From Minisyncoccota bacterium (GTDB taxonomy: Bacteria > Patescibacteriota > Minisyncoccia > Phycocordibacterales > JABAAK01), in NCBI GenBank assembly GCA_963668425.1, contig OY764332.1, forward strand, positions 460,336 to 524,335: DNA of 64,000 nucleotides, read 5' to 3'. The first letter of the stretch is position 1; each line of letters begins with the position of its first letter. The translations under genes were made by a program, and so were the position numbers. The notes under the pieces were generated by a model. That model ran no database searches. It was given only the letters and a program-made list of their open reading frames with translations, and was not told the DNA's origin. This document shows, one piece after another, positions 3,557 to 52,769 of this stretch.

Positions 3557-3598
3557 CATATATCGTGCTACTGTGATTAACGTTAGAGCGGTGGATGG

Positions 3599-10288: not shown

Positions 10289-10600
10289 CTCGGGTATCCG
10301 TTGCACATGCTCTGTTTTGAAGCATTGCATATCTTGTATTCCTCGTGCGGCCTAACCCGCCTGCAAAGTACTGTGCCTCACGATCTTTCTAAAAGGCACT
10401 CGGAATGCAAATATGCAATGCTTTTATTTGCGTATGTTCAAACGTGTACCTCTCGTTGGTGGATAGGGGCGATATTTGGTTAGTGTTGTGCTAAACGGAG
10501 TGATCTTCGCTGGGTGTGCATCACGTGTTTCATACCGCAGTTTTGTTGTATGTGCAACGGATACCTCTCGCCGGTGGATAGGGGTGGTGTCTGTGTGTAG
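10289..10600. repeat. Copy 1 of a roughly 290-bp intergenic repeat element with 15-bp terminal inverted repeats (GGTATCCGTTGCACA ... TGTGCAACGGATACC)
   Basis: About 95% identical to 12004..12290. It starts directly after the ftsW stop codon. Confidence 0.8.
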
Positions 10601-11233: not shown

Positions 11234-12003
11234 TTGTTACAGAGGAGAGCCAAAGAGAAATATTGTGTGAGGCGGGGAAGCGGCTACGGAAAGTGCTTGA
11301 TGCTGTTTTAGATCGTATTACTGCCGGAATAGATGCAAAATCTTTGGATGCCTTGGCACACAGTATGATTGTGGACGGCGGTGATACCCCAACCTTTTTG
11401 GGGTATCGTCCTCCTGGAGTGGCAGAAGGATATCCGGCGGTGTTGTGTGTGTCGGTGAATGATGAGGTGGTTCATGGCGTTCCCAAAAAGGAGACCGTGT
11501 TCCAGGAGGGGGATGTGGTATCTGTTGATTGTGGACTGCAACATAGAGGAGTGTTTGTTGATGCGGCGTGTACTGTAGCTGTTGGCGAAGGAGATGAAAA
11601 AGCAAGAGATTTGTTGGAGGCGAATAAAAAGGCACTACGGCATGCGTTGGTGTTTGCTCGGGCGGGTGCGACGACGGGTGATATTGGAAGTGCGGTTGAG
11701 ACCATTGCAGAGGAGTATGGTTTTGTGACGCCACCTGAGTTGGGTGGGCATGGTGTTGGTAGTGCGCAGCATGAGGATCCGTTTATACCGAATATCGGAG
11801 ATCCAGGTGCTGGAGAGCGTTTGCAAGAGGGGCAAGTGCTTGCGATAGAGCCGATTTTTTTTGAAGGGGAAAATCCGCATGTTGTTGTTTCAGATGACGG
11901 GTTTACTTATAAAACAGTAAGTGGCGATCGGTCGTCACATTTTGAGCATACCGTGCTTTTGACGGAGGGGGTGCCGGTGTTGGTGACGGGAGAGATGTGG
12001 TAG
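11230..12003 (+). CDS. map: Type I methionine aminopeptidase
   Basis: MetAP fold with metal-ligand residues (D..D..H..E..E pattern); overlaps adk by 4 nt. Confidence 0.85.
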   Translation: MIVTEESQREILCEAGKRLRKVLDAVLDRITAGIDAKSLDALAHSMIVDGGDTPTFLGYRPPGVAEGYPAVLCVSVNDEVVHGVPKKETVFQEGDVVSVDCGLQHRGVFVDAACTVAVGEGDEKARDLLEANKKALRHALVFARAGATTGDIGSAVETIAEEYGFVTPPELGGHGVGSAQHEDPFIPNIGDPGAGERLQEGQVLAIEPIFFEGENPHVVVSDDGFTYKTVSGDRSSHFEHTVLLTEGVPVLVTGEMW

Positions 12004-12340
12004 TGCTCGGGTATCCGTTGCACATGCTCTGTTTTGAAGCATTGCATATCTTGTATTCCTCGTGCGGCCTAACCCGCCTGCAAAGTACTGTGTCTTACGA
12101 TCTTTCTAAAAGGCACTCGGAATGCAAATATGCAATGCTTTCATTTGCACATGTTCAACGTGTACCTCTCGTTGGTGGATAGGGGCGATATTTGGTTGGT
12201 GTTGTGCTAAACGGGGTGATCTTCGCTGGGTGTGCATCACGTGTTTCATACCGCAGTTTTGTTGTATGTGCAACGGATACCTCTCGTATGTGAATAGGGC
12301 GATACTTATTTTTTGTTTAATTAAAGAAAGTGCTTGTCGC
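12004..12340. repeat. Copy 2 of the roughly 290-bp inverted-repeat element (direct orientation relative to copy 1)
   Basis: Same terminal inverted repeats. It starts 1 nt after the map stop codon. Its tail (ctcgtatgtgaatagggcgatacttattttttgtttaattaaagaaagtg) matches the tail of copy 3. Confidence 0.8.
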
Positions 12341-22680: not shown

Positions 22681-22810
22681 CAAAGTAGTGTATGTATTCG
22701 GGTATCCGTTGTACACTCTTTTTACTGTATCTTTGTTGATTGTCCAACGCGTACTTCTCGTGTGTGAATGAGGCGATATTTATTTTTTGTTTGATTAAAG
22801 AAAGTGATCT
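22681..22810. repeat. Copy 3 (short variant) of the inverted-repeat intergenic element, directly 3-prime of the 5S rRNA
   Basis: It starts GGGTATCCGTTGTACAC. Its tail ctcgtgtgtgaatgaggcgatatttattttttgtttgattaaagaaagtgatcttcgc matches copy 2. Confidence 0.7.
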
Positions 22811-23024
22811 TCGCAGGCACTGCACTGGCTTAGAGTATTGCTATATCATGCAATCCTTTCGTTTGTACCTGTGCAATGTGTGTCCTTCATGTGTTGGTGG
22901 GTTTTGTGTGTATTGATACTAAAAATACCTTGTAAAATAAGGTTTTTCTTGGGAGGAAGGTGTCGTTCTTGTGGATGTATGCTACAATTATATTTACTTA
23001 TAGCACATATATAAGAGGGAGAGA

Positions 23025-25238: not shown

Positions 25239-25310
25239 TGCCGGATCGTCTAATTGGTAGGACGACGGGTTTTGATCCCGTTAATCTAGGTTCGAGTCCT
25301 AGTCCGGCAG
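25239..25310 (+). tRNA. tRNA-Gln (anticodon UUG)
   Basis: I folded the cloverleaf by hand: U1-A72 acceptor, anticodon loop TTTTGAT, T-loop TTCGAGT. Confidence 0.8.
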
Positions 25311-25339
25311 CTAACTAGTAAAGAGGGGGTGTTTAGTGA

Positions 25340-25843
25340 ATGGAGCAAAGGCATGTAATGAGTTCACGTGCTAATTCAAATAGACAGATTATTAAGAGAG
25401 GTTATGAAGAAGGCGTACTTTACCTTGTTCATGGTGATGAAATTGGGTTTGTTGATGAAGAGGATGGGGATGTCAGTGAGATTTCTGGGTTTATTGGAAT
25501 GCTTGAGCCGGGGACAACGTATATTCTTGCCACACGGTACGATGAAAAAAATGGCTGGCATACACTTATAACTCATCCGAATGGAATAACACCCCTGAGT
25601 CAAAATACTGGGTTAGGTGGTGATTCGAATGTTTTTATAGAGGATGATAATGATAGAATTGTAGCACTTAGAGAAGCATACAAAGATGAGATCTTGCTTG
25701 ATGTGGATGTGGCAAATGATAATGCAAGGAATAGCTATGCATCTTTGCGGAAATCAACGGAAAGGGATTTGGGGGAGGTTTCGGAAGAAGAAGTTAAAGA
25801 AGAGGTTCGAAAAAATGACTTTGAAGGTGATTTTCCTAGATGA
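25340..25843 (+). CDS. Hypothetical protein, truncated paralog of 51260..51910 (lacks the signal peptide)
   Basis: LEPGTTYILATRYDEKNGWHTLITHPNG and REAYKDEILLDVDVANDNARNSYASL align with the 51260 protein. A strong RBS precedes it. Confidence 0.55.
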   Translation: MEQRHVMSSRANSNRQIIKRGYEEGVLYLVHGDEIGFVDEEDGDVSEISGFIGMLEPGTTYILATRYDEKNGWHTLITHPNGITPLSQNTGLGGDSNVFIEDDNDRIVALREAYKDEILLDVDVANDNARNSYASLRKSTERDLGEVSEEEVKEEVRKNDFEGDFPR

Positions 25844-25919
25844 TTTTTTTGTGATTATGAAAAGATTATGAAAAACACGGCACCAAGTGGTGCCGTGCTG
25901 GTTATTGTCCCCTCATCTT

Positions 25920-26633
25920 TCATTCATAGTGAGGGATAATGAAGGCGAATCTGCCGCAATAGTCCTCAGGGTTAAGGGAATTGAATAATCTGTCTTGGTC
26001 TGTGTTGTTTGTAGTATTTTCTATCAGAGCGTTTGAGTTGAGCCAGAGTCCAATGTTGGTTTCTGGGTGTGGGGATGTGTCATCCCGCACTATACTGAAT
26101 ATCTGTGGTATGCCGTCGGCATACCAATTATTTTCTTCAGTTGCTATAAAGAATCCATGATACACTCCGTAGTTAGGTTGATCAGTAAACTGTAGGCGTA
26201 ACTGTACAGCAACTTCAGGTGGACATGGTGCATAACCAAACTCTTTCCCTTTTTCAAGGATATCTTTGAAGGATACTAATGCATCTTCTTCAAACCCTAA
26301 ATCAAAGAGGGAGAGGATTATTACCGCTACCTCACTCTCTTCCTTTGCGATTGGGAAGTTTGGGTGAGAGAGTGATTGCACTGACTGCTGGTCTACTAGA
26401 AATTTTTCTTCTCTAATCTTTCTTAAAAGATCAATGCCGGTTTTCTGCGTTCCAATAGTTAGCGTGGGAAATGGAACGTTTAAATCCCGATCCCCCTTTT
26501 CCATCTCAGGGCATGTGCCTGTATCTATGTTTTCTGAGCAAGAGGTAGTGAAGAGTAGTCCTGAAAAAACTAAGAAAATCAGGTTTGTTTTTATAAGGAA
26601 TGCAAGATTTTTCATGTCGCCCCCTTCATTCAT
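25920..26633 (-). CDS. Lipoprotein, paralog of 50488..51189
   Basis: Signal peptide plus Cys lipobox. The block CPPEVAVQLRLQFTDQ...DGIPQIFSIVRDDTSPHPETNIGL is shared with the 50488 protein. Confidence 0.6.
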   Translation of the reverse strand: MNEGGDMKNLAFLIKTNLIFLVFSGLLFTTSCSENIDTGTCPEMEKGDRDLNVPFPTLTIGTQKTGIDLLRKIREEKFLVDQQSVQSLSHPNFPIAKEESEVAVIILSLFDLGFEEDALVSFKDILEKGKEFGYAPCPPEVAVQLRLQFTDQPNYGVYHGFFIATEENNWYADGIPQIFSIVRDDTSPHPETNIGLWLNSNALIENTTNNTDQDRLFNSLNPEDYCGRFAFIIPHYE

Positions 26634-26829: not shown

Positions 26830-29800
26830 CTATTGTGCCAGGGTAGTGAAAGGTACTGGTATGCTTTTTTGCTCTTGTTGCCAAACATTGTCCACCCTAG
26901 GTATTACTTCTACAGCATATGCTGTATTTGATCGGAGTCCGTCTATTTTCTTATAGTTGGTAGATACAAACTGATACTGTGATGTATTGCTTTGGGCGCC
27001 TGTTTTCCACCACCTGACTGTGTACTGATCTGCCTTAGGTAGTGTTGGCCAGGTAGCCGTGGCGCTATCAGATGTGATAGATATTACAGAGAGGGAAATC
27101 TTCTCCTTCGCTATTGTATCATCATCATCTGCTATTGTTGTCGTTGCTGTGCCTTGGGTACTGGAGATTGTGTAGCCACTGCCAGCAGTTACGGTTACCG
27201 TTACCGAGCCGTCTGGTTCATCTACTTGGTCTCCATTCGCTGGGATGGTCAGTGTCGCTGTTCCACTTGTGGGGATAGTTACCGTCTGACTTCCAGCTGT
27301 TATACCATAGTTGCCACTTGCCGTAATTGATACCGTTACTGGCAGATCTGCTGTCGGTACTGGGCTCGCTGAGAGGGTGAATGTTGCACTGCTCCCCTCT
27401 GTTATACCGCCGTCAGTCCTGATACGTATCTCTGGGATGGAAGGCGTTACCCCATCATCATCTGCTATTGTTGTTGTTGCTGTGCCTTGGGTACTGGAGA
27501 TTGTGTAGCCACTGCCAGCAGTTACGGTTACCGTTACCGAGCCGTCTGGTTCATCTACTTGGTCTCCATTCGCTGGGATGGTCAGTGTCGCTGTTCCACT
27601 TGTGGGGATAGTTACCGTCTGACTTCCAGCTGTTATACCATAGTTGCCACTTGCCGTAATTGATACCGTTACTGGCAGATCTGCTGTCGGTACTGGGCTC
27701 GCTGAGAGGGTGAATGTTGCACTGCTCCCCTCTGTTATACCGCCGTCAGTCCTGATACGTATCTCTGGGATGGAAGGCGTTACCCCATCATCATCTGCTA
27801 TTGTTGTTGTTGCTGTGCCTTGGGTACTGGAGATTGTGTAGCCACTGCCAGCAGTTACGGTTACCGTTACCGAGCCGTCTGGTTCATCTACTTGGTCTCC
27901 ATTCGCTGGGATGGTCAGTGTCGCTGTTCCACTTGTGGGGATAGTTACCGTCTGACTTCCAGCTGTTATACCATAGTTGCCACTTGCCGTAATTGATACC
28001 GTTACTGGCAGATCTGCTGTCGGTACTGGGCTCGCTGAGAGGGTGAATGTTGCACTGCTCCCCTCTGTTATACCGCCGTCAGTCCTGATACGTATCTCTG
28101 GGATGGAAGGCGTTACCCCATCATCATCTGCTATTGTTGTTGTTGCTGTGCCTTGGGTACTGGAGATTGTGTAGCCACTGCCAGCAGTTACGGTTACCGT
28201 TACCGAGCCGTCTGGTTCATCTACTTGGTCTCCATTCGCTGGGATGGTCAGTGTCGCTGTTCCACTTGTGGGGATAGTTACCGTCTGACTTCCAGCTGTT
28301 ATACCATAGTTGCCACTTGCCGTAATTGATACCGTTACTGGCAGATCTGCTGTCGGTACTGGGCTCGCTGAGAGGGTGAATGTTGCACTGCTCCCCTCTG
28401 TTATACCGCCGTCAGTCCTGATACGTATCTCTGGGATGGAAGGCGTTACCCCATCATCATCTGCTATTGTTGTTGTTGCTGTGCCTTGGGTACTGGAGAT
28501 TGTGTAGCCACTGCCAGCAGTTACGGTTACCGTTACCGAGCCGTCTGGTTCATCTACTTGGTCTCCATTCGCTGGGATGGTCAGTGTCGCTGTTCCACTT
28601 GTGGGGATAGTTACCGTCTGACTTCCAGCTGTTATACCATAGTTGCCACTTGCCGTAATTGATACCGTTACTGGCAGATCTGCTGTCGGTACTGGGCTCG
28701 CTGAGAGGGTGAATGTTGCACTGCTCCCCTCTGTTATACCGCCGTCAGTCCTGATACGTATCTCTGGGATGGAAGGCGTTACCCCATCATCATCTGCTAT
28801 TGTTGTTGTTGCTGTGCCTTGGGTACTGGAGATTGTGTAGCCACTGCCAGCAGTTACGGTTACCGTTACCGAGCCGTCTGGTTCATCTACTTGGTCTCCA
28901 TTCGCTGGGATGGTCAGTGTCGCTGTTCCACTTGTGGGGATAGTTACCGTCTGACTTCCAGCTGTTATACCATAGTTGCCACTTGCCGTAATTGATACCG
29001 TTACTGGCAGATCTGCTGTCGGTACTGGGCTCGCTGAGAGGGTGAATGTTGCACTGCTCCCCTCTGTTATACCGCCGTCAGTCCTGATACGTATCTCTGG
29101 GATGGAAGGCACTGGATCATTGTGAGAGAGTAGTATGATACGTGGTATTGTTGGTTCTACTTGGTATAAGTCAGGACGAGTCGTAGCAAACCCGTTAGGT
29201 GTTCGTACCACAATATACTGTAAGGCGTCAAGATCGGGAAAGGTGATTTTTTGAGCATCGGCTTCCATTGTGAGTACCTCTGAGTCAGACCCAGATTTAG
29301 TTTTTGGCTCTATGGTCAGAGGGAAATCCCGTTTCCGACTGATAAACAGGTATTGCTTTTGTTTGTTAATTGTTATATGCAATGAGTCATCATCTATATG
29401 TTTGATGGCTAAGATATTATGGGCGGGGTCTATCGTTATTCCGGGCAGGTTGCCGATCAAGGATAGGGTGGCTGTTGCTGCGGCGTCCTGCTCTACCTTA
29501 TTGTCGTCTTTGGTTTCTATCTCGATGTAACCGCGATTTTCTCCTATCTGCATTTGTTCCACTTTCCATTCGATGTCATGATCGGCAGGTTCAGGATCGG
29601 AGTTTTGAGGGATGATAATGAAATTTCCTGCCGTGATGGTAAAGCCCAGCGATAATGTCTGTGTTGGAATTCTGAATGGAATTCGCCGGCTGGAAGTGAA
29701 ATATATTCGATATATCTGATTTCCTTCCGTAATGTTGACGGAAGGAGGTCCGGTAAGACGGATGGTGATGGGCGTGTCATTGTCTACTATCTGCACGGTT

Positions 29801-32800
29801 TTGTCATAGGTCTTGCCGTTATACCGTTCGTCAGTAGAACTCAGTGTAAATCTGATAATCACGGTATCCAGCTCGTTGGTGTCACTGTCTGGTGTCCCGA
29901 GAATGGAAATTGCTTCATCTGTATAGTCGGTTGGACTGAAAGTCAGCGGGCCTCCACTTATGGTGGCATGACTGCTGCCTGTGCTGATTGTTACCTGTGC
30001 TGTTACCTGTGCCGTTGGGGCTGAGTCCAAAGATACCTGCAATGTACCGGCGTTTTCCTCACCAATGTAAAAATCCTGATGCTCGTCTATTCCCTGAGGT
30101 GTTAGCGTTATCCACTGTACATGGTTGGAGGGATCAAAGAGGTACAAGTTGACAGGAGAACCTTGGGTCACTGGATCTGGGTTTCTCGTGTCTGTCTTAG
30201 TGAAGGACAGATCGCCAATAGTTACTGTTACTGCTTCAATGTCGGCCTCTATCGTACTGTCATCAGGAGCGTTTAATGTGAGCGTTGCAGTGGTTGCTGT
30301 GCTTGGGGCAAAAGACACAGTAGCATTGGCGGTGCCAACTCCTGTGTAGGTAACCCCTGCTGCTGCTGTCTCGGTTAGCGTGTAGTCAGTGCCTTGGTCA
30401 GCGTCGCCGGTAACAGTTACTGGCACAGTCAGTGCTTCTCCGGTTTGCAGTGGTCTGTTGAGGGTTAGGGTAATGATGGAATCCTCACCACCTTCAAGTA
30501 TGATTTTCCGCGAGGCATCCAATGTCACCTGTATTGGCTCGTCGTCAATGATGAGTACCGTTGCCGCTGCATTGCTACCGGTGGTAATGGCGGTTGGGCT
30601 GTTTGGTAGTTGATTGGCGTTGATAGTGATGGTGAACTGCTCGTTACCTTCGGCTAGATCATCATTAGGTATATTTGCAGAAAATGTGGCAGTGGACTCA
30701 CCTGCTTTGATAACGATTCCATTGTCGGCGAGGAGGAAGTCCGTTCCTCGGGTTGCGCCCTGTTCTGTGATAGTGATGGGTAGGGTGAGATCACTTCCCA
30801 ATGGTGCACTTAATGTAACCGTTGCTTCAAGCAGTCCAGATGCCTCGTTGACGACAAACATGTTTTTGGAGAATTGGACAGTTGATGTTGCTGGTGGGTC
30901 CTGAATGGTGCTGCTGTATATTGTGCCTTGAGCACCTCCGTGCAGGTTAACGCCGGAGGTTGTGTCTACATCAAGGGTGATGGTGATGGTTTCTGGCGCT
31001 GTCTCGGCGGTTGAGTCCGTCAATACTTGTAGGAATTCGTACATCTGTATATCGGCAATGCTATCTGTATTTTCCGTTGGATCACCTCCGGTAAAGGTGA
31101 TACTTGGACTGTTTCCATTAAAGTTGTTACATACCGCCTTCATATTTTTCAAATTATCAAATCGAGGACAGAGCAGTTTATAGTCCGTGCCGTAGGTTGC
31201 TGTCCCCCCGAAGGTGAATGGTATTGTTATCTCTTCAGGTGCGATTAACTCTCGACTGAGTGTAGTGTTGAACTGATAGATTCCTCCTTCTACTAGGTGC
31301 TCTGGGTTTCCACCAATTACAGGAGTTGCGGATATTAAGGTTGCCTGGCTGTCGTAAATTGGCAGATTGACGGAGTTGGCAGATCCTAAGGTGTAGACGC
31401 CATTGTAATGAGGATCAATGGTTACGGTAATCTGTCCGTTACCAGTGGCCGCTGGTTGGTCAATGCCGTCATTTCGTGTTTCTACCTTGATAGTGGCGGT
31501 GGTTGCTTCTGCAGGTATGGTGGCAGTGAAGAGTCCTGTTTTATCGTCGTCAATGTAGTCATGACCCGGTCCGTCAGTAACGCGATACTTTACTTCTAGG
31601 TCAATATCTGATGATTGGTTGGCGGTGATTGTGAATCTTGCTTCACCTCCTTCTACTACCTCAGTAGCACTATTCATAGGTGCGATGGTAAGCTCCACCT
31701 TTTCCCAAATAGACACACTTGACCCTTCGGTGCTTAAAAGATTCAGCCAACCGGGAAGATTGTTTGTTTGTATGGAGATCTCAAACATTTCAACATTCTC
31801 GTCAATGCTGTCTTTTGCAGTGGGTATTGTGAAGGTTTTTGATTGCTCTCCTTTGGTAAATTTGACTTGGTAAGGTCCTGCTGTATAGTCAGCTGGTGCA
31901 GTTGCGGTTTTGTCTTTGGTATTGACGGTGATGGTTACGTCTTCTTGAGCCGGTGCTGTGAGATGTAGGGTAACTTTTGCACCATCACCTTCACCAACTT
32001 CAAGATTTTTTCTACTGTCATCAAATAGTATTCCAGTTTTCTCTACCTGAAATACTGGAGTGATGCCGTAGAGGCGGTGCTTTGTCGTGTTAGAGGCAGT
32101 GTTGGAAGTGTTGGTATTGCCGATAGGATTGATGCCTGTGCCTGTTACTAACCCTACGGCTCCCCACAAGACCTGACTGGCTCCTAGTGGATTTGTGTTG
32201 TGTTTGGTGCCGTCGTCGTTGGAACCAGTCCACACGGTTATATGGTCTGGGGTTATGCGGTTGCCGGACTCGTCTCTTGGTAGGTTTTGCCGTAAGGGTT
32301 TCCAAGAGCCGTCGTAGAAGTCGGCGTAAGAGTCGGCGACTTTGTCGCCACTTACCCAGTAAATGGGGACATTGTCGTTGGTATCCTGCCATGTTGAGGT
32401 GTTGTTGTTCCACATAGCAGTGTTGTCACGAGCATCAATGGTGCTGGTGGATCCGACTATTTTTATGTTTGCTATTGTGTTGCTGTCTACCTCATCGTTT
32501 GTGAAGGCGTTGTTATTACCAGCGGCGGTCTGTACAAGCGTGTTATAGGTGTTACTATCTGTTGAGTCAGCAGTGTGCTGAGTGGAGGTGATGAATATGA
32601 GGCGGAACTTGTCGTCAGTGCCAATTCCATCGGGGATCAGGGATGAGCTTGGCTGAATCATAAATGGATTGCTCACACTCTGCGCTTCTGCTGGGGCTTG
32701 TGGTCCGAACAAAGATGCTAGTCCAATTGCCACAAGTAAGGCGAGTACGATTGCATAGTGAAATACGTTTTTACTTTGATTGAATACATGTTGATGTCTT

Positions 32801-32877
32801 GGTGTATGCATGATTCTATCTTTTATTATCACACGTTCGGCTTGTTGAATCAAGGTATTTGCTATATTTGCCATCAC
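26830..32877 (-). CDS. Giant (2015 aa) cell-surface protein with multiple Calx-beta-like beta-sandwich domains, six identical 111-aa tandem repeats and a C-terminal fibronectin-III-like domain
   Basis: An N-terminal signal/TM (AIVLALLVAIGLASLF) is followed by Calx-beta-like repeats (APADYTAGPYQVKFTKGEQSKTFTIPTAKDSIDENVEMFEISI). The six 111-aa copies each end ADDDG. The C-terminus (WPTLPKADQYTVRWW...NTAYAVEV) is FN3-like. Confidence 0.8.
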   Translation of the reverse strand: MMANIANTLIQQAERVIIKDRIMHTPRHQHVFNQSKNVFHYAIVLALLVAIGLASLFGPQAPAEAQSVSNPFMIQPSSSLIPDGIGTDDKFRLIFITSTQHTADSTDSNTYNTLVQTAAGNNNAFTNDEVDSNTIANIKIVGSTSTIDARDNTAMWNNNTSTWQDTNDNVPIYWVSGDKVADSYADFYDGSWKPLRQNLPRDESGNRITPDHITVWTGSNDDGTKHNTNPLGASQVLWGAVGLVTGTGINPIGNTNTSNTASNTTKHRLYGITPVFQVEKTGILFDDSRKNLEVGEGDGAKVTLHLTAPAQEDVTITVNTKDKTATAPADYTAGPYQVKFTKGEQSKTFTIPTAKDSIDENVEMFEISIQTNNLPGWLNLLSTEGSSVSIWEKVELTIAPMNSATEVVEGGEARFTITANQSSDIDLEVKYRVTDGPGHDYIDDDKTGLFTATIPAEATTATIKVETRNDGIDQPAATGNGQITVTIDPHYNGVYTLGSANSVNLPIYDSQATLISATPVIGGNPEHLVEGGIYQFNTTLSRELIAPEEITIPFTFGGTATYGTDYKLLCPRFDNLKNMKAVCNNFNGNSPSITFTGGDPTENTDSIADIQMYEFLQVLTDSTAETAPETITITLDVDTTSGVNLHGGAQGTIYSSTIQDPPATSTVQFSKNMFVVNEASGLLEATVTLSAPLGSDLTLPITITEQGATRGTDFLLADNGIVIKAGESTATFSANIPNDDLAEGNEQFTITINANQLPNSPTAITTGSNAAATVLIIDDEPIQVTLDASRKIILEGGEDSIITLTLNRPLQTGEALTVPVTVTGDADQGTDYTLTETAAAGVTYTGVGTANATVSFAPSTATTATLTLNAPDDSTIEADIEAVTVTIGDLSFTKTDTRNPDPVTQGSPVNLYLFDPSNHVQWITLTPQGIDEHQDFYIGEENAGTLQVSLDSAPTAQVTAQVTISTGSSHATISGGPLTFSPTDYTDEAISILGTPDSDTNELDTVIIRFTLSSTDERYNGKTYDKTVQIVDNDTPITIRLTGPPSVNITEGNQIYRIYFTSSRRIPFRIPTQTLSLGFTITAGNFIIIPQNSDPEPADHDIEWKVEQMQIGENRGYIEIETKDDNKVEQDAAATATLSLIGNLPGITIDPAHNILAIKHIDDDSLHITINKQKQYLFISRKRDFPLTIEPKTKSGSDSEVLTMEADAQKITFPDLDALQYIVVRTPNGFATTRPDLYQVEPTIPRIILLSHNDPVPSIPEIRIRTDGGITEGSSATFTLSASPVPTADLPVTVSITASGNYGITAGSQTVTIPTSGTATLTIPANGDQVDEPDGSVTVTVTAGSGYTISSTQGTATTTIADDDGVTPSIPEIRIRTDGGITEGSSATFTLSASPVPTADLPVTVSITASGNYGITAGSQTVTIPTSGTATLTIPANGDQVDEPDGSVTVTVTAGSGYTISSTQGTATTTIADDDGVTPSIPEIRIRTDGGITEGSSATFTLSASPVPTADLPVTVSITASGNYGITAGSQTVTIPTSGTATLTIPANGDQVDEPDGSVTVTVTAGSGYTISSTQGTATTTIADDDGVTPSIPEIRIRTDGGITEGSSATFTLSASPVPTADLPVTVSITASGNYGITAGSQTVTIPTSGTATLTIPANGDQVDEPDGSVTVTVTAGSGYTISSTQGTATTTIADDDGVTPSIPEIRIRTDGGITEGSSATFTLSASPVPTADLPVTVSITASGNYGITAGSQTVTIPTSGTATLTIPANGDQVDEPDGSVTVTVTAGSGYTISSTQGTATTTIADDDGVTPSIPEIRIRTDGGITEGSSATFTLSASPVPTADLPVTVSITASGNYGITAGSQTVTIPTSGTATLTIPANGDQVDEPDGSVTVTVTAGSGYTISSTQGTATTTIADDDDTIAKEKISLSVISITSDSATATWPTLPKADQYTVRWWKTGAQSNTSQYQFVSTNYKKIDGLRSNTAYAVEVIPRVDNVWQQEQKSIPVPFTTLAQ
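27115..29112. repeat. Six perfect tandem copies of a 333-bp coding repeat inside the giant surface-protein gene
   Basis: Five identical 65-aa shadow ORFs on the plus strand sit exactly 333 nt apart. The protein repeat VTPSIPEIRIRTDGG...TTTIADDDG is identical six times. Confidence 0.9.
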
Positions 32878-32985: not shown

Positions 32986-33531
32986 TTATTTGCTTTCTCG
33001 GAGGGTTTTTTCCACGAGGTCCCAGAAGCGTTTTGAGTGGTTCATTTCTTTGAGGTGGCAGAGTTCGTGGACGATGAGCTTGTCTGCCTCTTTTTTTGGG
33101 AGAAAGATTATTTTGTAGTTAAACGTGAGATTTCTACTTGATGAACAAATACCCCAACTTGCTTTGAGCTGCTTTGCCCATATGTTGTTAAAGGTGAATT
33201 TGTTTTTTCTATTCCAGTATGTTACTTTTTCTTCACAAAATCGTAAAGCCCTTTCTTTGTGTTTGAGAAAATGTTCACGATCGTCTATTGCAAGGTTTTC
33301 GTTCATTCCGTATCTTTTTGTGAAGGACTCAACACGTTCCGCTATCCATGGATGCTTTTCTCGGACAAATGTTTCAACTGTTGTTTTTTTGACCCACTTT
33401 GGTTTTGTGACTGTTATTTTTCCGCCGATGCCGATTGCTAGTTTGAGATGTTGTGCCTTTGGATGGTTAACCAGTTCATACTCTAGATATCGGTTTTTAT
33501 ATCTCATTTTTTGTCGTGAGCGAGTAGCCAT
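32986..33531 (-). CDS. YgjP/DUF45-family metal-dependent hydrolase (SprT-like)
   Basis: HELCHLKEMNHSKRFW zinc-binding motif near the C-terminus. Confidence 0.55.
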   Translation of the reverse strand: MATRSRQKMRYKNRYLEYELVNHPKAQHLKLAIGIGGKITVTKPKWVKKTTVETFVREKHPWIAERVESFTKRYGMNENLAIDDREHFLKHKERALRFCEEKVTYWNRKNKFTFNNIWAKQLKASWGICSSSRNLTFNYKIIFLPKKEADKLIVHELCHLKEMNHSKRFWDLVEKTLRESK

Positions 33532-40058: not shown

Positions 40059-43000
40059 ATGGTGTACGATCCTGAAAGAATAGTAAGCATTGGGGAGCTA
40101 GAAAAACGAGGGAAGACCGTGCGTTTTGGTATTAAGGAAAAGGATAGGTCTCGGCATATTTATGTTATCGGACAGACGGGTACTGGTAAGTCAACATTGT
40201 TGGAGATGTTGGCGATGCAGGATATACGAAACGGTACCGGTTTGATTTTTATGGATCCGCATGGGCAGTCAGTTGAAGCATTGTTGCAATATGTAACACG
40301 GGACTATTTGGATAACATTATCTACTTTGCGCCACATCATCAGGAAAGACCGATTGGGTTGAATATTATGGAAGATATTGGCTATGATAAGCGGCATTTG
40401 GTGGTAAGTAGTTTGATGGCGTCGTTTGAGAAAATTTGGGGAGCTGGAACCTGGTCAGATAGGATGGCATACATTTTGCAGAATACGTTACTGGCGTTGA
40501 TTGAGTATCCTGGTACCACCTTGCTTGATGTTGGACGAATGTATAGTAGTAAAGGTTTTCGGGAGAAAGTTGTTGCTAACTTAAAAGACCCACAGGTGCG
40601 GAAGTACTGGGTTGAGGAATTTGCAAACTATACCGAGCGATACGCTCAGGAGGCAACACCATCTATTCAGAACAAGCTCGGTCAGTTTACCTCTAATCCG
40701 TTGATGCGAAATATTATTGGACAGAAGGACTCTGCGTTTAATTTTCGGGAGATTATGGATGAGGGGAAAATACTATTGGTGAATTTATCAAAAGGGCAGA
40801 TTGGTGAGAATAATGCACGAATGCTTGGTGTGTTGTTCACGACGAAGATTTATCTTGCCGCACTATCGCGAAGTAATATGACGAAGGCAGAGTTAGAGGC
40901 GGCGAATCCTTGTAATTTCTTTGTTGATGAGTTTCAGTCATTTGCGAATTCTTCTTTTTCTGATATTTTGTCTGAGGCGCGAAAATATAAGTTAAATCTG
41001 GTGATGGCGCATCAGTATTTAGGACAGTTATACTCTGATGACTCTGGTGGCGGAGATGTGATTCGGGATGCGGTGTTTGGTAATGTGGGAACCTTTGTAT
41101 CATTTCGGGTTGGTCCGGTTGATGCGGAGATTATTTCTAAACAATTTGCGCCGGATATTGCGGAGGAGGACTTGGTTGCGTTGCCACGGTATCATATATA
41201 CCTTACGTTGAATATTGATGGTGCCGGCTCTACACCATTTTCTGCAAGGACTTTTTATGAGCCAGCGCCGGAGAGTATGTCATTGGAGGATGAGGTTGTG
41301 CAGCGAACAATGGATGTTTACGGTGCTGATCGAGCGGCTGTAGAGAAATTGGTTGAGGATAATTTGGCGGAGGATGTTCAATCTAATGAAGTAGCAAAGA
41401 AATCTGGTGGACAGAAGGGTGGTGGGAAGAAATCTGGCTGGCAGCAGGGTGGTGGTGGACAAAGATCTGGCGGACAGAGGTCTGGTGGACAGAAGGGTGC
41501 ACATGGTGGTGACCGGAGAGATCTAGAGACCCATACCCCATTGAAGGGGTTGGTACAACAGATGATGCAGCGACCTGGGCAACAGAAGGAGGAGAAATCA
41601 AAAGAGCGAGGAGATGATGGTGAGGGATTTGTAAAAAAGAGGGTAGATGCGTCTGATCAGCCAAGGATGGATAGGTCAAAAGAACGTGTTGGGCAGAGGA
41701 GTGAAAGTAGGAGAATCCTGAAGAAGAAGGTGGATGTGTTGGAGCAGCGAGGAGCGAATGAGCCAAAGGAGCGTGTTGAGCAGAAGGGTGAGGTTGGAAA
41801 GGTTGTGAAGAAGGATGTTGCTATGTCAGTGACTGATATGCCGAAGAAAGGGCAGAGTGTCGTTGAGAGGTCAGAAGATGTTCGTGTTGTGGATACCCCA
41901 AAAGTACAGCACTCTTTTCCTGCAGAAGAACAGCGTAGGAGGCGAGGACGAGGGTCGGAAGGCGCTGCATCGGAGCGTGAACAGAATGACGACAGAAAAC
42001 GGTCTGCATCAAGTGGCAAGGTTCGTCGTGAAGAATCTGTTGCCATGCCGAGTCCTAATCAACAACGTACTCAGCGTAGGTCAAATCGTAGAGATGTTAA
42101 GCAGGATGATGGTGGTGGACAAAGATCTGGCGGACAGAGGTCTGGTGGACAGAAGGGTGAGGTTGGAAAGGTTGTGAAGAAGGATGTTGCTATGTCAGTG
42201 ACTGATATGCCGAAGAAAGGGCAGAGTGTCGTTGAGAGGTCAGAAGATGTTCGTGTTGTGGATACCCCAAAAGTACAGCACTCTTTTCCTGCAGAAGAAC
42301 AGCGTAGGAGGCGAGGACGAGGGTCGGAAGGCGCTGCATCGGAGCGTGAACAGAATGACGACAGAAAACGGTCTGCATCAAGTGGCAAGGTTCGTCGTGA
42401 AGAATCTGTTGCCATGCCGAGTCCTAATCAACAACGTACTCAGCGTAGGTCAAATCGTAGAGATGTTAAGCAGGATGATGGTGGTGGACAAAGATCTGGC
42501 GGACAGAGGTCTGGTGGACAGAAGGGTGAGGTTGGAAAGGTTGTGAAGAAGGATGTTGCTATGTCAGTGACTGATATGCCGAAGAAAGGGCAGAGTGTCG
42601 TTGAGAGGTCAGAAGATGTTCGTGTTGTGGATACCCCAAAAGTACAGCACTCTTTTCCTGCAGAAGAACAGCGTAGGAGGCGAGGACGAGGGTCGGAAGG
42701 CGCTGCATCGGAGCGTGAACAGAATGACGACAGAAAACGGTCTGCATCAAGTGGCAAGGTTCGTCGTGAAGAATCTGTTGCCATGCCGAGTCCTAATCAA
42801 CAACGTACTCAGCGTAGGTCAAATCGTAGAGATGTTAAGCAGGATGGAGAGGGTTCTGTACGGAATAGAGGGCAGCGACAGAAGAGGCAAAAGAACCATG
42901 GTGGAGGTGGTGGTCAGAGACATGCTCCCATAGATAAATTTGTTGTACGTACAGAGAAAGAGAAGGGTGGTTCTACAAGCAAGCAAGGAGTTTCTGCTGA

Positions 43001-47665: not shown

Positions 47666-47817
47666 ACGGTTTCAAAAGGGTTCGTAGGGAGTTCTGTATT
47701 GGATGATTGAATTGGTAGCATGCAACACTGGTGTGTAGTATACGTTATTCATACTGCCTATTTTGATTTTAGAAGGTATTTTGCTATGCATCCAGTAGTG
47801 TTATTTGTTGATTCATT

Positions 47818-48336: not shown

Positions 48337-48347
48337 ATATTGGTACG

Positions 48348-50180: not shown

Positions 50181-50303
50181 GAGGTACTTGTTCTTTCTGG
50201 TTTGCGAGCTCGCTAACATGCATATTTTTGAGTGAAAAGATTAATTTTTTTCTTCTAATTTTTGAGGCGCGTTGGGATTACTTGTCCTGATGCGCCTTTT
50301 TTG

Positions 50304-50349
50304 TGTGCGAATGGTAGGACTCGAACCTACGACCTCTCCATTATCAGTG
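50304..50349. repeat. Direct repeat of the 3-prime 45 nt of tRNA-Ile; left boundary of a 2.3-kb islet
   Basis: tgtgcgaatggtaggactcgaacctacgacctctccattatcagtg is identical to the 3-prime half of the tRNA at 52601..52673. The upstream T-run is also shared. Confidence 0.8.
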
Positions 50350-50487: not shown

Positions 50488-51189
50488 GTGATGTCTCATT
50501 TTTTTTCATTAAAGGTATTCTTGTTTCCGATAATTTTGTTTTGCTTGATCTTTGTTTTTGCATGCTCTCAAGATAATGAGGATGTGTGTATTATCACTCT
50601 TTCAGGTGGAGAACGATCAATTGCACTCCATTTTCCCTCTATAACCTTGAGGGCTTTCGACAATGGTGCCGATTTACTTCAAGATCTGGAAGAAGGAAGA
50701 TTTCTGGTAGATAAGAAATCGACACAAACCCTCTCTCATCCTGATTTTCCAACCTCAAAAGAAGAAACCAGAGTGAGTGTGGTTGTTCGTTCACTTCTTA
50801 GCATGGGGTTTCCTGCGAATGAGTTGATTTCTTACAAGGAAATTCTTGAAAAAGGAAAAGATCTTGGCCTTATGGTCTGTCCCCCTGATCTTGCTGCACA
50901 GCTCCGTTTACAGTTTACTGATCAGTCATCTCACGGATGGCTTGGTGATTTTCTCATTGCAACCGAGGAAATCAACTTGCACACCGATGGCATCCCAGGA
51001 ATATTTGCTGTTGTGCGGGATGATTCATCTCCTCATCCAGAGACCGGTATTGGATTACACCTCGTCTTCTATAATTTAGTGAGGGGAGGTCAAAATCAAT
51101 TGTTTGATCCTCGTAACTCCGAGAAAAATATCTATTGCGGGAAATTTGCTTTTATTGCTCCTGTAGATAATTTGATTTTTGAAGAGTAA
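50488..51189 (+). CDS. Lipoprotein, paralog of 25920..26633
   Basis: Signal plus Cys lipobox (LIFVFACSQ). Shares VCPPDLAAQLRLQFTDQ...DGIPGIFAVVRDDSSPHPETGIGL with the paralog. RBS AAGGAGG. Confidence 0.6.
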   Translation: MMSHFFSLKVFLFPIILFCLIFVFACSQDNEDVCIITLSGGERSIALHFPSITLRAFDNGADLLQDLEEGRFLVDKKSTQTLSHPDFPTSKEETRVSVVVRSLLSMGFPANELISYKEILEKGKDLGLMVCPPDLAAQLRLQFTDQSSHGWLGDFLIATEEINLHTDGIPGIFAVVRDDSSPHPETGIGLHLVFYNLVRGGQNQLFDPRNSEKNIYCGKFAFIAPVDNLIFEE

Positions 51190-51259
51190 TAAGCTTTGCG
51201 CGGCACTGATTTTGTGCCGCGCTTTTTATTCCCACTGTAATTTTTTACATGACACAATG

Positions 51260-51910
51260 TTATTTTGATGCCTGCAGAGATTTGAAGCTGTTTCTTGCAT
51301 TGCCTTTCGCCACATCCACTTTTAGTAATACCTCATTTTTATATGCCTTCTTTAATTGTGCAACTCTTTCATCATTGTTTGCTATACCCTTTAGATTCTC
51401 CAGACTTGATCCGGCATCTTGGCTAAGAACTTTCTTTCCATTTGGATGGGACATAAGTGTATGCCAATCTTTATCCTCGTAGTATCGTGTAGAAAGAAGG
51501 TAGGTTTCCCCGGGTTCAAGCAATCCTTCAGTATTGCCATCAGCGGGAGATAGTATGTCGCCATTGTGCACGACATGGAGTACGCCATTTTTATACCCGC
51601 CTAATTGATTTATGGTTACAGTATTCTGTAAGCTTCCTTTGACATTTCTTATTACTGCTACTTCAAATTGTGTATAAGGAACATCTATGGTGCTGAAAGT
51701 GCCACTTTGTCGAATCACCTTTCCAACAAAAATATTATGTGATGTGCCAACTAATATTTTATCATCTGTAAAATCAGCAACCCACTTAGGGTGTATTTCT
51801 TTTACAATAGGAAGCTTAATTGCATTTGTATGCAATCCAATGCTAATGCATAAAACAAAAAGCAATATGCTTCCAATTGCTATATGTATGGTGGTTAATT
51901 TTTTAGTCAT
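51260..51910 (-). CDS. Secreted or membrane-anchored hypothetical protein, full-length paralog of 25340..25843
   Basis: N-terminal TM/signal; shares LEPGETYLLSTRYYEDKDWHTLMSHPNG and KKAYKNEVLLKVDVAKGNARNSFKSL with the 25340 protein. Confidence 0.55.
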   Translation of the reverse strand: MTKKLTTIHIAIGSILLFVLCISIGLHTNAIKLPIVKEIHPKWVADFTDDKILVGTSHNIFVGKVIRQSGTFSTIDVPYTQFEVAVIRNVKGSLQNTVTINQLGGYKNGVLHVVHNGDILSPADGNTEGLLEPGETYLLSTRYYEDKDWHTLMSHPNGKKVLSQDAGSSLENLKGIANNDERVAQLKKAYKNEVLLKVDVAKGNARNSFKSLQASK

Positions 51911-51950: not shown

Positions 51951-52529
51951 TCAATCCCATAGGGTATTATTGTTATAGTCATATTTATCAATAGGCCCCA
52001 AAGAGGTTTTCAAGTTTACAGTATCATGCATAATATTGCCAGAATGGGAATGATCTAATCCTAGTGCGTGACCAAGTTCATGTAGAATAACATTTTTTAT
52101 TGTGGCATCTTGCCATGCCCAGGGAAGGATACTAAGGTCATCGTCAAGATAATGTTTATTCAGATACAGTTCATCACTACCGATCCAATCGTAATCATAT
52201 AGCCCCGCCCAATCTGCATCAGCGCTGTATACATCCCTTACAGTCAGATCCTGATAAGTCCAAAAAGTATCGGGAGCTATATTAATTTCTCCCAGCGCAT
52301 TCCATGTTGAAATCCCATAGCTCCATTGAGTTGAATATTTTGTTGATCCTCCCCACCGTATTTCATAGTCATCTACCGCGTTATTATCATTAAAATGTCC
52401 ATCAGTTGAGCCAGCGAAAACAAGAGTAACACCTAGTAAAGATGTGATTACCATTACCATTGTCAATACAAAAAGTATTGAGATTTTATTTTTCATAAAT
52501 GTAATTATATTATTAAGTAAATAACCCAC
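51951..52529 (-). CDS. Secreted matrixin-like (metzincin) zinc metalloprotease
   Basis: HELGHALGLDHSHSGNIMH is the HExxHxxGxxH metzincin signature plus a Met-turn. An N-terminal signal/TM is present. Confidence 0.7.
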   Translation of the reverse strand: MGYLLNNIITFMKNKISILFVLTMVMVITSLLGVTLVFAGSTDGHFNDNNAVDDYEIRWGGSTKYSTQWSYGISTWNALGEINIAPDTFWTYQDLTVRDVYSADADWAGLYDYDWIGSDELYLNKHYLDDDLSILPWAWQDATIKNVILHELGHALGLDHSHSGNIMHDTVNLKTSLGPIDKYDYNNNTLWD

Positions 52530-52600
52530 ACTTTCAGTTATTGTTAGTATACAGTCTTTTGAAGCGTATTAGAGATATTTGTTCCAGTGTGCTTTTTATG

Positions 52601-52673
52601 TGCGAATGGTAGGACTCGAACCTACGACCTCTCCATTATCAGTGGAGTGCTCTAACCACCTGAGCTACATTCG
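52601..52673 (-). tRNA. tRNA-Ile (anticodon GAU)
   Basis: Reverse complement folds GCGAATG...CTGATAA anticodon loop...TTCGAGT...CATTCGC-A. Confidence 0.8.
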
Positions 52674-52769
52674 CATATTGTGTATTATAGCGTAAAAGGT
52701 TTGTCTGTGTGGTTGGTAACACTACCTTGTTTTTTGGGCGTGTATGTTCTGTATAGTAGAATAGTACTA

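What the first reader, a model, noticed from the sequence alone, without database searches (positions are those of the whole stretch)
25340..26633. Duplicated convergent two-gene module (lipoprotein plus partner protein) present at two tRNA-adjacent loci
Module 1 is 25340..25843(+) and 25920..26633(-), right after tRNA-Gln. Module 2 is 50488..51189(+) and 51260..51910(-), inside the tRNA-Ile islet. They encode recognisably paralogous proteins in the same convergent arrangement but mirror-imaged. The lipoproteins share the block CPP(D/E)(L/V)A(A/V)QLRLQFTDQ...DGIP.IF..VRDD.SPHPET.IGL. The partners share LEPG.TY.L.TRY.E...WHTL..HPNG...LSQ and (K/R)(K/E)AYK.E.LL.VDVA..NARNS. The copy at 25340 lacks the N-terminal secretion signal of its paralog, so it may be truncated. 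Neither protein matches a family I know. A conserved convergent pair of secreted proteins duplicated at tRNA-linked sites is the kind of unit that could encode a toxin/immunity pair, an adhesion pair or another accessory system.
Basis: seen in the sequence. Interest (0 to 1): 0.65.

Follow-up and report, generated by a model that had tools for sequence, protein, structure and literature searches.

The report
Duplicated tRNA-islet: protease partner plus lipoprotein
The duplicated gene pair is real, but it is two diverged copies (one of them truncated) of a small islet beside a tRNA gene: one gene's conserved partner is an overlooked neighbouring secreted metalloprotease (a protease/TIMP-like pair described in Listeria), and the lipoprotein belongs to a family of binding proteins that some bacteria hypermutate.

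Summary
A1/A2 are 45% identical over 230 aa and B1/B2 are 46% identical over 119 aa, in convergent order, next to tRNA-Gln and tRNA-Ile.

The interpretation needs correcting.
- **Module 2 has three genes.** A 52-nt direct repeat of the tRNA-Ile 3' end brackets a secreted mini-matrixin (51951-52496), B2 and A2.
- **B's conserved partner is the metzincin, not A.** In 32 other B loci (candidate-phyla-radiation (CPR) bacteria, Bacillaceae, methanogens), a metzincin lies directly upstream in 21, an ECF sigma factor in 6, and an A-type gene nearby in none.
- **B2 has a TIMP-like fold.** It models as a membrane-anchored TIMP/NTR-like beta-barrel. It is remotely homologous (hhalign 97.9%) to a Listeria-phage ORF pair matching the published Listeria mtz-tim description, in which the protease cleaves its anchored TIMP-like partner.
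- **A is a lipoprotein from a large family absent from Pfam.** Its Patescibacteria members include verified targets of diversity-generating retroelements (DGRs). A1/A2 show no template repeat or reverse transcriptase in the window.
- **B1 is truncated.** It lacks the membrane anchor and half the barrel, and module 1 lacks the protease.

Verdict: a remote new member of a known protease/TIMP-like pair on a tRNA-linked islet, with a passenger binding lipoprotein. It is not a toxin/immunity pair.

The parts
25239..25311 (+). tRNA-Gln(UUG), anchor point of module 1
   Evidence: ARAGORN. No partial repeat of its 3' half elsewhere in the window.
25340..25843 (+). B1: 5'-truncated Tim-like gene. It holds the last strands of the barrel, the C-terminal helices and an acidic tail. 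It has no signal or anchor. Public annotation calls it from 25358 (161 aa).
   Evidence: Aligns to B2 aa 105-215 only. In-frame stops lie directly upstream and GAGGGGG sits about 10 nt before the ATG. The retained part scores 103 bits against the family C-terminal profile; intact members score 64-166. Start used in public data.
25876..25897 (.). GC-rich hairpin between the convergent genes B1 and A1 (candidate bidirectional terminator)
   Evidence: 9-bp stem CACGGCACC/GGTGCCGTG. Fold z = -3.4. It shares the core CGGCAC...GTGCCG with the module 2 hairpin.
25920..26633 (-). A1: lipoprotein with the A domain (same family as DGR variable proteins)
   Evidence: 45% identical to A2. Hydrophobic leader followed by the invariant Cys-Ser. 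tblastn with verified DGR targets P0072 and P0281 hits it at E=6e-19 and 8e-17.
50298..50349 (-). Distal copy of the 3' 45 nt of tRNA-Ile plus 7 nt (att-like repeat, far boundary of the islet)
   Evidence: 52 nt, 98% identical to 52593-52644 (family D15).
50488..51189 (+). A2: lipoprotein with the A domain (GTG start at 50488; the public call starts at ATG 50491, 232 aa)
   Evidence: AF2 model pLDDT 81, pTM 0.77, with beta-alpha-alpha-beta-beta-beta-beta order in aa 94-224. The best PDB matches are C-type lectin domains, but only at E about 0.5.
51198..51222 (.). GC-rich hairpin between the convergent genes A2 and B2 (candidate bidirectional terminator)
   Evidence: 9-bp stem GCGCGGCAC/GTGCCGCGC followed by a T-run. 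Fold z = -4.2.
51260..51910 (-). B2: full-length Tim-like protein. It has an N-terminal membrane helix (aa 2-27), a TIMP/NTR-like beta-barrel (aa 36-163) and C-terminal helices.
   Evidence: AF2 pLDDT 83, pTM 0.76. Foldseek against PDB returns TIMP-1/-2, agrin NtA, PCOLCE and complement NTR domains at probability 0.99-1.0, E about 1e-3, TM(target) about 0.6. hhalign to the Listeria-phage Tim-like ORF: 97.9%, E=6e-13.
51951..52496 (-). Secreted mini-matrixin (Mtz-like metzincin, 181 aa with signal peptide). This gene was missing from the finding.
   Evidence: Pfam Peptidase_M10 30.9 bits, above the cut-off of 24; motif HELGHALGLDHSHSGNIMH. The 181-aa form is the one in public data. BLASTP to the Listeria-phage Mtz-like ORF E=5e-9. 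The same family lies directly upstream of B in 21 of 32 other loci.
52600..52674 (-). tRNA-Ile(GAU). Its 3' 45 nt plus 7 nt (52593-52644) form the proximal att-like repeat.

Best explanation
The finding is two diverged copies of one small accessory islet that sits at the 3' end of a tRNA gene.

The complete copy (50298-52674) reads, from tRNA-Ile: a secreted, prodomain-less matrixin-like metalloprotease; then, 40 nt downstream on the same strand, B2; then a shared hairpin; then, convergent, the lipoprotein A2; then a 45-nt duplicate of the tRNA-Ile 3' end. B2 is a membrane-anchored protein with a TIMP/NTR-like beta-barrel.

The copy at tRNA-Gln has the same orientation relative to its tRNA. 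It has lost the protease and the 5' half of B, leaving B1 as a signal-less fragment, and it keeps the hairpin and A1.

A and B are neighbours by descent, because the block was copied or acquired as a unit. They are not a conserved working pair.

The working pair is metzincin + B, a remote member of the Listeria mtz-tim type. Inferred mechanism: the exported protease binds the anchored TIMP-like partner at the cell surface. The partner restrains the protease, or is itself cleaved and released as shown for Listeria Tim, and so acts on envelope or neighbouring-cell proteins.

A is inferred to be a surface ligand-binding lipoprotein. It uses the scaffold that related Patescibacteria diversify with DGRs, but here it is fixed and not diversified.
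For: Paralogy.

Islet boundaries: 52-nt tRNA-Ile repeat. Positionally equivalent GC hairpins lie in both convergent gaps.

Metzincin-B linkage: same-strand adjacency or overlap in L002, L005, L007 and L008 and in 21 of 32 non-redundant B loci spanning CPR bacteria, Bacillaceae, Methanosarcinaceae and Methanoperedens.

B fold: TIMP/NTR hits dominate the Foldseek list on a confident model.

Homology to a Listeria-phage ORF pair that matches the published mtz-tim description: the Bacillus metzincin and B hit adjacent ORFs of Listeria phage LM 4-14-1 at E=3e-11 and 6e-8. The B profile against that Tim-like ORF gives hhalign 97.9%, E=6e-13. The window metzincin against its Mtz-like ORF gives E=5e-9.

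Published function: Mtz cleaves anchored Tim; the pair is associated with mobile elements across Firmicutes (PMC8235301).

A family: 1705 profile hits. Members P0072 and P0281 have C-terminal variable regions matched by template repeats, with 20/21 and 18/18 mismatches at template adenines, next to bAvd and RVT_1 genes. These proteins match A1/A2 directly.

No A-B co-occurrence elsewhere: 0 of 32 B loci.
Against: - Both copies of the A-B block have survived to about 45% identity with both ORFs open. B1's retained part is as well conserved as in intact orthologues and has a good ribosome-binding site. Some A-B or B1-specific function is therefore not excluded.
- The only close CPR relative of A (P0002) sits 167 nt from a contig end, so its downstream neighbour is unseen.
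- There is no integrase in or next to the islet, no att-like repeat at tRNA-Gln, and only a mild GC dip.
- The TIMP similarity is at fold level only, at E about 1e-3. B has no Cys1-X-Cys3 and no ectodomain cysteines, so canonical TIMP chemistry is impossible.
- The link to Listeria Tim rests on a phage contig, not on LMRG_00714 itself.
- The C-type lectin fold of A is not significant in fold searches.
Confidence: 0.65

Rival explanations
1. A and B form a true two-component system, as the first reader proposed (toxin/immunity, adhesin plus partner). The convergent arrangement has been kept by selection in both copies.
For: Two copies keep the same order, the same shared hairpin and near-equal divergence of 45% and 46%. 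B1's remaining part shows no decay.
Against: 0 of 32 B loci elsewhere has an A-type gene within 5 kb, and the A-family loci examined have no B. B's conserved partners are a metzincin (21/32) or an ECF sigma factor (6/32). B1 has no export signal, whereas A1 is a lipoprotein, so the two could not meet. No toxin, immunity or defence family matched.
Confidence: 0.1
2. The two modules are not an intragenomic duplication. They are two independent integrations of related mobile islets at different tRNA genes, and the tRNA-Gln copy later lost its tRNA-proximal end.
For: Both modules abut a tRNA 3' end in the same orientation relative to the tRNA. Module 2 is bracketed by a tRNA-derived direct repeat. 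mtz-tim pairs are reported to travel on prophages and integrative elements (PMC8235301). The window has several other partial tRNA duplications (families D9, D12, D13).
Against: No integrase is present. There is no repeat at tRNA-Gln. The GC anomaly is weak. Each paralogue's best match in the window is the other copy, and A is very rare elsewhere. This fits a local duplication at least as well.
Confidence: 0.3
3. B is a signalling (anti-sigma-type) sensor domain rather than a protease partner.
For: In Bacillaceae the B domain follows a cytoplasmic extension and a membrane helix. The gene overlaps an upstream ECF sigma factor gene in 6 loci.
Against: B2 has only about 8 cytoplasmic residues. 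No sigma factor gene lies next to either module. In CPR bacteria and archaea the neighbour is a metzincin. In Metabacillus (L027) the sigma/anti-sigma-B pair sits beside a metzincin/B pair, which suggests the sensor version also relates to the protease.
Confidence: 0.08
4. A1 and A2 are active DGR targets, and their template repeat and reverse transcriptase lie elsewhere in the 696-kb genome.
For: They are homologous to verified DGR variable proteins, and the verified variable regions align to the C-terminal 60 residues of A1/A2. DGRs are common in CPR bacteria (PMC8144416).
Against: The window holds no repeat of 45 nt or more matching either 3' end and no RT or Avd. The region equivalent to the variable region carries insertions (PHPET..., GIGLWL) and is conserved across the lipoprotein subfamily from CPR bacteria to Poribacteria. 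That is the opposite of hypervariation.
Confidence: 0.06

Closest known systems
Listeria monocytogenes mtz-tim pair (LMRG_00713/00714; Boichis et al. 2021, PMC8235301)
   Same: A secreted small metzincin is followed immediately, on the same strand, by an anchored protein with a TIMP-like fold. The pair is carried on mobile or accessory DNA. Sequence homology is detectable via a Listeria-phage copy.
   Different: B is anchored by a membrane helix, not a lipobox. It has a conserved C-terminal helical extension (AYKNE..LLD.D...N.RNSY). The homology is remote, with about 30% identity over the barrel core. The host is a CPR bacterium. The islet carries a third gene (A) and has a second, truncated copy. 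Cleavage of B by the protease is untested.
Metazoan TIMPs / NTR modules (TIMP-1/-2, PCOLCE NTR, agrin NtA, complement C345C)
   Same: The predicted beta-barrel with flanking helices matches these at probability 0.99-1.0. B is genetically linked to a matrixin-type protease.
   Different: No sequence similarity. No Cys1-X-Cys3 and no disulfide framework. The N-terminus is embedded in, or close to, the membrane, so zinc chelation by a free N-terminal cysteine cannot apply.
Potempin/KLIKK-peptidase system of Tannerella forsythia (PMC9890683)
   Same: Membrane-anchored small beta-barrel (OB-fold) proteins are encoded next to secreted peptidases, including the MMP-like karilysin. They protect the producer's own surface.
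   Different: In that system the inhibitor gene lies upstream, not downstream. The inhibitors are lipoproteins of a diderm outer membrane. No homology was tested or claimed here; this is an analogy only.
DGR variable proteins of CPR/Patescibacteria (Roux et al. 2021, PMC8144416)
   Same: A1/A2 share a domain with about 200-aa Patescibacteria proteins whose C-termini are verified variable regions beside bAvd and RT genes. Such CPR targets are described as lacking recognisable domains.
   Different: A1/A2 are lipoproteins, carry insertions in the region equivalent to the variable region, and have no template repeat, RT or Avd in the window. They look like fixed, non-diversified relatives.

Membership tests
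mtz-tim (metzincin + TIMP-like) pair | Secreted metzincin with HEXXHXXGXXH and a Met-turn | tested here: met
   PF00413 at 30.9 bits, above the cut-off of 24. The sequence has HELGHALGLDH...NIMH and a signal peptide MKNKISILFVLTMVMVITSLLGVTLVFAG.
mtz-tim (metzincin + TIMP-like) pair | Partner gene immediately downstream on the same strand | tested here: met
   40-nt gap in the window. Adjacency or overlap in 21 of 32 other loci.
mtz-tim (metzincin + TIMP-like) pair | Sequence homology of both genes to the Listeria pair | tested here: met
   hhalign of the B profile against the Listeria-phage Tim-like ORF gives 97.9%, E=6e-13. BLASTP of the metzincin gives E=5e-9. This was tested against a phage-borne copy, not against LMRG_00713/00714 themselves.
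mtz-tim (metzincin + TIMP-like) pair | TIMP-like fold of the partner | tested here: met
   Foldseek top hits are TIMP-1/-2 and NTR modules, at probability 0.99-1.0, E about 1e-3, TM(target) 0.58-0.61.
mtz-tim (metzincin + TIMP-like) pair | Lipobox anchoring of Tim (Listeria form) | tested here: not met
   B2 has a membrane helix with no lipobox cysteine before the domain. The paper notes that other Firmicutes homologues also lack the lipobox.
mtz-tim (metzincin + TIMP-like) pair | Cleavage and release of Tim by Mtz | not testable with these tools
   Needs biochemistry.
TIMP family (Pfam PF00965 / NTR PF01759) | N-terminal Cys-X-Cys and conserved disulfides; match to the family profile | tested here: not met
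   No Pfam hit at E<=1. No PDB sequence hit. The ectodomain has no cysteines.
DGR variable protein | Homology to proteins with a verified variable region | tested here: met
   P0072 and P0281 match A1/A2 at E=1e-12 to 1e-19. Their variable regions differ from the template repeats at template adenines in 20/21 and 18/18 mismatches.
DGR variable protein | Own variable region matched by a template repeat with adenine-specific mismatches; RT and Avd nearby | tested here: not met
   No such repeat and no RT or Avd in the 64-kb window. The rest of the genome was not available.
DGR variable protein | C-type lectin fold | tested here: inconclusive
Bacterial lipoprotein (A1, A2) | Hydrophobic leader ending in a lipobox with an invariant Cys | tested here: met
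   A2 has ...IFVFAC|SQ and A1 has ...LFTTSC|SE. The Cys-Ser is invariant in the close subfamily. Judged by eye; no predictor was run.
tRNA-integrated genomic island | Direct repeat of the tRNA 3' part at the far end | tested here: met
   Met for tRNA-Ile (52 nt, 98%). Not met for tRNA-Gln.
tRNA-integrated genomic island | Integrase gene in the island | tested here: not met
   The islet holds only the three genes. The neighbouring ORFs 48555-49163 and 49572-50180 have no Pfam hit.
Toxin/immunity or defence system | Recognisable toxin, immunity or defence domain | tested here: not met
   No PADLOC, Pfam, NCBIfam or PHROG match for A or B.

The most novel reading that the evidence does not exclude
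Matrixin plus TIMP-fold partner is an old, mobile prokaryotic two-gene unit shared by CPR bacteria, Firmicutes and methanogenic archaea. If matrixins moved between bacteria and animals, as recently argued (PMC12587646, which never mentions TIMPs), the animal TIMP/NTR inhibitor fold could descend from this bacterial partner, transferred together with the protease. In this reading the CPR islet is a three-part surface-remodelling cassette in which lipoprotein A targets the protease/partner complex to another cell.
Probability: 0.1. Interest if true: 0.8.

Novelty: new member of a known kind. Interest (0 to 1): 0.42.

Why it matters
It turns four 'hypothetical proteins' into testable objects.
- The published Listeria metzincin/TIMP-like pair extends, with the same gene order, into candidate-phyla-radiation bacteria and methanogenic archaea. 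The same lineages were recently noted to carry horizontally moving matrixins (PMC12587646). The protease therefore appears to travel with a dedicated TIMP-fold partner.
- The lipoprotein ties a large Pfam-less family together. Its members appear as DGR targets, as ECF-sigma-linked sensors and as lipoproteins. This gives a lead on what CPR hypermutation targets bind.
- For genome annotation, the lesson is that a repeated neighbour pair within one genome can reflect block duplication rather than a functional pair.

Tried and rejected
- **Curated libraries.** Pfam, NCBIfam, PHROGs and PADLOC gave nothing for A or B. Profile searches of PDB sequences gave only noise.
- **Metagenome scans.** Two scans for close A relatives returned no confirmed locus.
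- **Exact-sequence look-ups.** Look-ups of P0003 and P0038 found no contig, so I could not retrieve the host record name or a sister strain.
- **Remnants of the lost genes.** I looked for traces of the metzincin or the B N-terminal half near tRNA-Gln or anywhere in the window and found none. A weak hit led to ORF 32986-33531, which is a YgjP-like hydrolase and unrelated.
- **att-like repeat at tRNA-Gln.** None found.
- **Composition.** GC gives only a mild dip over both modules, which is not decisive.
- **Toxin/immunity reading.** Considered and rejected for lack of any supporting domain or co-occurrence.
Full report
**1. Observation**

- A1 (25920-26633, -) and A2 (50488-51189, +) align over 230 residues at 45% identity, E=4e-71.
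- B1 (25340-25843, +) and B2 (51260-51910, -) align over 119 residues at 46% identity, E=7e-34.
- The sequence is not low-complexity, and every quoted motif is present.
- tRNA-Gln ends 29 nt before B1, and tRNA-Ile lies beside module 2.

**2. Anatomy**

Three features were missing from the finding.

- **A third gene.** Directly upstream of B2 on the same strand, with a 40-nt gap, lies a 181-aa gene (51951-52496). It has a signal peptide and the motif HELGHALGLDHSHSGNIMH. It passes Pfam's Peptidase_M10 (matrixin) threshold at 30.9 bits against a cut-off of 24.
- **A bracketing repeat.** A 52-nt direct repeat at 98% identity (50298-50349 and 52593-52644) consists of the 3' 45 nt of tRNA-Ile plus 7 nt. 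It brackets exactly these three genes (family D15). This is the classic footprint of integration into a tRNA gene, although no integrase is present.
- **Matching hairpins.** Both convergent gaps hold a 9-bp GC hairpin with a shared core: CACGGCACC/GGTGCCGTG at 25876-25897 and GCGCGGCAC/GTGCCGCGC at 51198-51222.

Read from the tRNA, both modules have the same order: tRNA 3' end, (protease), B, hairpin, then A on the opposite strand. Module 1 lacks the protease and the first 104 residues of B. No remnant of either exists in the window. tRNA-Gln has no att-like repeat.

**3. Protein B**

*Relatives and neighbours.*
- A word-indexed search found 32 relatives, all unnamed or 'hypothetical', some from Parcubacteria.
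- A scan of species-representative genomes added 29 loci. They come from many CPR lineages, Bacillaceae and Paenibacillus, Methanosarcinaceae and Methanoperedens.
- In every longer CPR contig I opened, B follows a small Peptidase_M10/M43-like gene with a gap of 16-19 nt or an overlap.
- Scored systematically over 32 non-redundant loci, a metzincin lies directly upstream on the same strand in 21. An ECF sigma factor does so in 6. Neither does in 6, two of which are at contig ends.

*Structure.*
- The AlphaFold model of B2 (pLDDT 83, pTM 0.76) has a membrane helix (aa 2-27), a beta-barrel (aa 36-163) and C-terminal helices.
- Foldseek against the PDB returns TIMP-1/-2 (several in complex with MMPs), agrin NtA, PCOLCE NTR and complement C345C domains. 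Probability is 0.99-1.0, E about 1e-3 and target-normalised TM about 0.6.
- B has no cysteine framework and no TIMP or NTR profile match. It is TIMP-like in fold only.

*Published precedent.*
- Boichis et al. 2021 (PMC8235301) describe the Listeria mtz-tim pair. It is a secreted metzincin followed at once by a TIMP-like lipoprotein, carried on prophages and other mobile elements across Firmicutes.
- In that system Mtz cleaves anchored Tim and releases the TIMP-like fragment, which weakens the cell wall.

*Homology test.*
- The Bacillus sp. ISL-45 metzincin and B hit adjacent ORFs of a Listeria-phage contig at E=3e-11 and 6e-8.
- The B profile aligns to that Tim-like ORF at hhalign 97.9%, E=6e-13.
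- The window metzincin aligns to the Mtz-like ORF at E=5e-9.
- Metzincin + B2 is therefore a remote member of this pair family.

**4. Protein A**

*Relatives.*
- The first search found only itself and one relative.
- An exhaustive profile search found 1705 relatives, 261 of them below 1e-10. A second profile search found 1362.
- None carries a Pfam domain in the A region.

*Three architectures appear.*
- Lipoproteins of about 250 aa: A1, A2, P0002 and a group that includes a protein annotated Candidatus Poribacteria.
- Proteins with a membrane helix plus the A domain. These are encoded just after an ECF sigma factor (L009) or fused to one (about 20 proteins of roughly 450 aa).
- Unexported Patescibacteria proteins of about 200 aa.

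*DGR link.* I sampled three proteins of the third kind, and all lie near bAvd and RVT_1 genes. For two of them the 3' end of the gene is a variable region matched by a template repeat, and the mismatches fall at template adenines:

| Protein | Locus | Mismatches at template adenines |
|---|---|---|
| P0072 | L011 | 20 of 21 |
| P0281 | L048 | 18 of 18 |

This is the diagnostic mark of a diversity-generating retroelement. Both proteins match A1 and A2 directly, at E=1e-12 to 1e-19. Their variable regions align to the last ~60 residues of A1/A2.

*A1/A2 themselves are probably not diversified.*
- The window has no RT, Avd or template repeat.
- The equivalent region carries insertions and is conserved across the lipoprotein subfamily.

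*Fold.*
- The A2 model (pLDDT 81, pTM 0.77) has a beta-alpha-alpha-beta-beta-beta-beta order in its C-terminal two-thirds.
- Its best PDB matches are C-type lectin domains, but only at E about 0.5. That fold is suggested, not shown.

**5. Is A-B a functional pair?**

- None of the 32 B loci outside this genome has an A-type gene within 5 kb.
- The A-family loci examined have no B. The closest CPR relative of A ends 167 nt before a contig end, so that case is blind.
- The equal divergence of A and B, and the conserved hairpin, are what one expects if the block B-hairpin-A (or protease-B-hairpin-A) was copied or acquired as a unit.
- I therefore read the adjacency as inheritance, not function.

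**6. The truncated copy**

- B1 keeps only the last barrel strands and the helices. It has no export signal and starts right after stop codons that follow the tRNA.
- Its retained part scores 103 bits against a family profile of that region. Intact members score 64-166.
- It has a plausible ribosome-binding site and is called as a gene in public data.
- Either the truncation is recent or the fragment has some use. I cannot tell which.

**7. Mechanism**

- *Shown here:* gene order, linkage, homology and fold.
- *From the literature:* in Listeria the protease cleaves its anchored partner.
- *Inferred:* the CPR metzincin has no prodomain. After secretion it meets B2 at the cell surface. B2 either restrains it, in the manner of potempins (PMC9890683) and AprI, or is cut near its conserved juxtamembrane segment and released. 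A2 is a surface binding protein.
- Chelation of the catalytic zinc by a free N-terminal cysteine, as in true TIMPs, is excluded.

**8. Novelty**

- The pair type is known (2021), so I file this as a new, remote member.
- What is new is its reach into CPR bacteria and methanogens. A 2025 study reports horizontally moving matrixins in those lineages without mentioning any TIMP-like partner (PMC12587646).
- Also new are the membrane-helix anchoring, the tRNA-bracketed three-gene islet, and its partial second copy.
- Two side results deserve follow-up: the A family linking DGR targets, ECF-linked sensors and lipoproteins, and the B domain as an anti-sigma ectodomain in Bacillaceae.

**9. Limits**

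- The host genome outside the window and sister strains could not be reached.
- The Listeria comparison used a phage contig that fits the paper's description, not the published locus itself.

Noticed in passing
L027:4235-6736 (Metabacillus sp. Hm71); also L028, L029, L030, L032, L034: In Bacillaceae the B domain forms the outer part of an anti-sigma-type protein (cytoplasmic extension plus membrane helix), and its gene overlaps an upstream ECF sigma factor gene. In L027 this pair sits directly beside a metzincin/B pair, giving a four-gene cluster. That suggests a sigma factor switched by the protease or by its partner.
   Followed up: partly
L009:6251-7609; proteins P0200-P0219, P0041: The A domain also occurs behind a membrane helix, either just after an ECF sigma factor gene or fused to one in a single protein of about 450 aa (about 20 distinct proteins, some on multi-megabase contigs). 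The A and B domains have therefore both been recruited as extracytoplasmic parts of ECF-sigma-linked proteins in other phyla.
   Followed up: partly
L011:5001-7625; L048:1091-3313: Unexported A-family proteins of Patescibacteria are bona fide DGR targets. Their variable regions differ from the template repeats almost only at template adenines (20/21 and 18/18), next to bAvd and RT genes. The family has no Pfam model.
   Followed up: yes
L044:3270-7953: Here an A-family gene (P0089) lies just upstream of a DGR, but the template repeat matches two neighbouring genes of a different family (307 and 295 aa) and not the A-family gene.
   Followed up: partly
L041:3120-5570 (Candidatus Uhrbacteria): Two protease/partner pairs lie in tandem. 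A second Peptidase_M10-like gene (3120-3767) is followed at once by a 203-aa membrane-anchored protein that the B profile does not detect. The canonical metzincin/B pair comes next.
   Followed up: partly
window 26830-32877 (-): A 2015-aa Calx-beta/LapA-like surface protein contains six perfectly identical 333-nt tandem repeats (27120-29084). A1 lies 196 nt downstream on the same strand.
   Followed up: partly
window 49246-49459 and 47780-48528: A 94-nt direct repeat at 99% identity, spaced 120 nt apart, includes the 3' end of tRNA-Glu (49435-49507). A 100-nt repeat at 85% identity lies at 47780/48429. These are further att-like scars next to two 202-aa ORFs with no family match.
   Followed up: no
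window 60518-60721 and 61607-61819: There is a partial duplicate of the tRNA-Trp 3' region (78 nt, 86%) and a tandem pair of tRNA-Leu(CAA) genes (80 nt, 95%).
   Followed up: no
window 10289-10583 and 12006-12299: A direct repeat of about 295 nt (96-97% identity) flanks a 1.7-kb segment holding two ORFs (10640-11233, 11230-12003). An 80%-identical 99-nt copy of its end lies at 22723-22821.
   Followed up: no
window 52680-54256 (+): On the other side of tRNA-Ile, two overlapping ORFs carry Lamin-tail (LTD) and PKD domains. They look like one surface protein gene split by a frameshift.
   Followed up: no
window 40059-43379 (+) and 54415-54594: A 1106-aa ORF contains three 369-nt repeats at 99-100% identity (41774-42811). 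Separately, there are 45-nt tandem repeats encoding a Lys/Arg-rich stretch.
   Followed up: no
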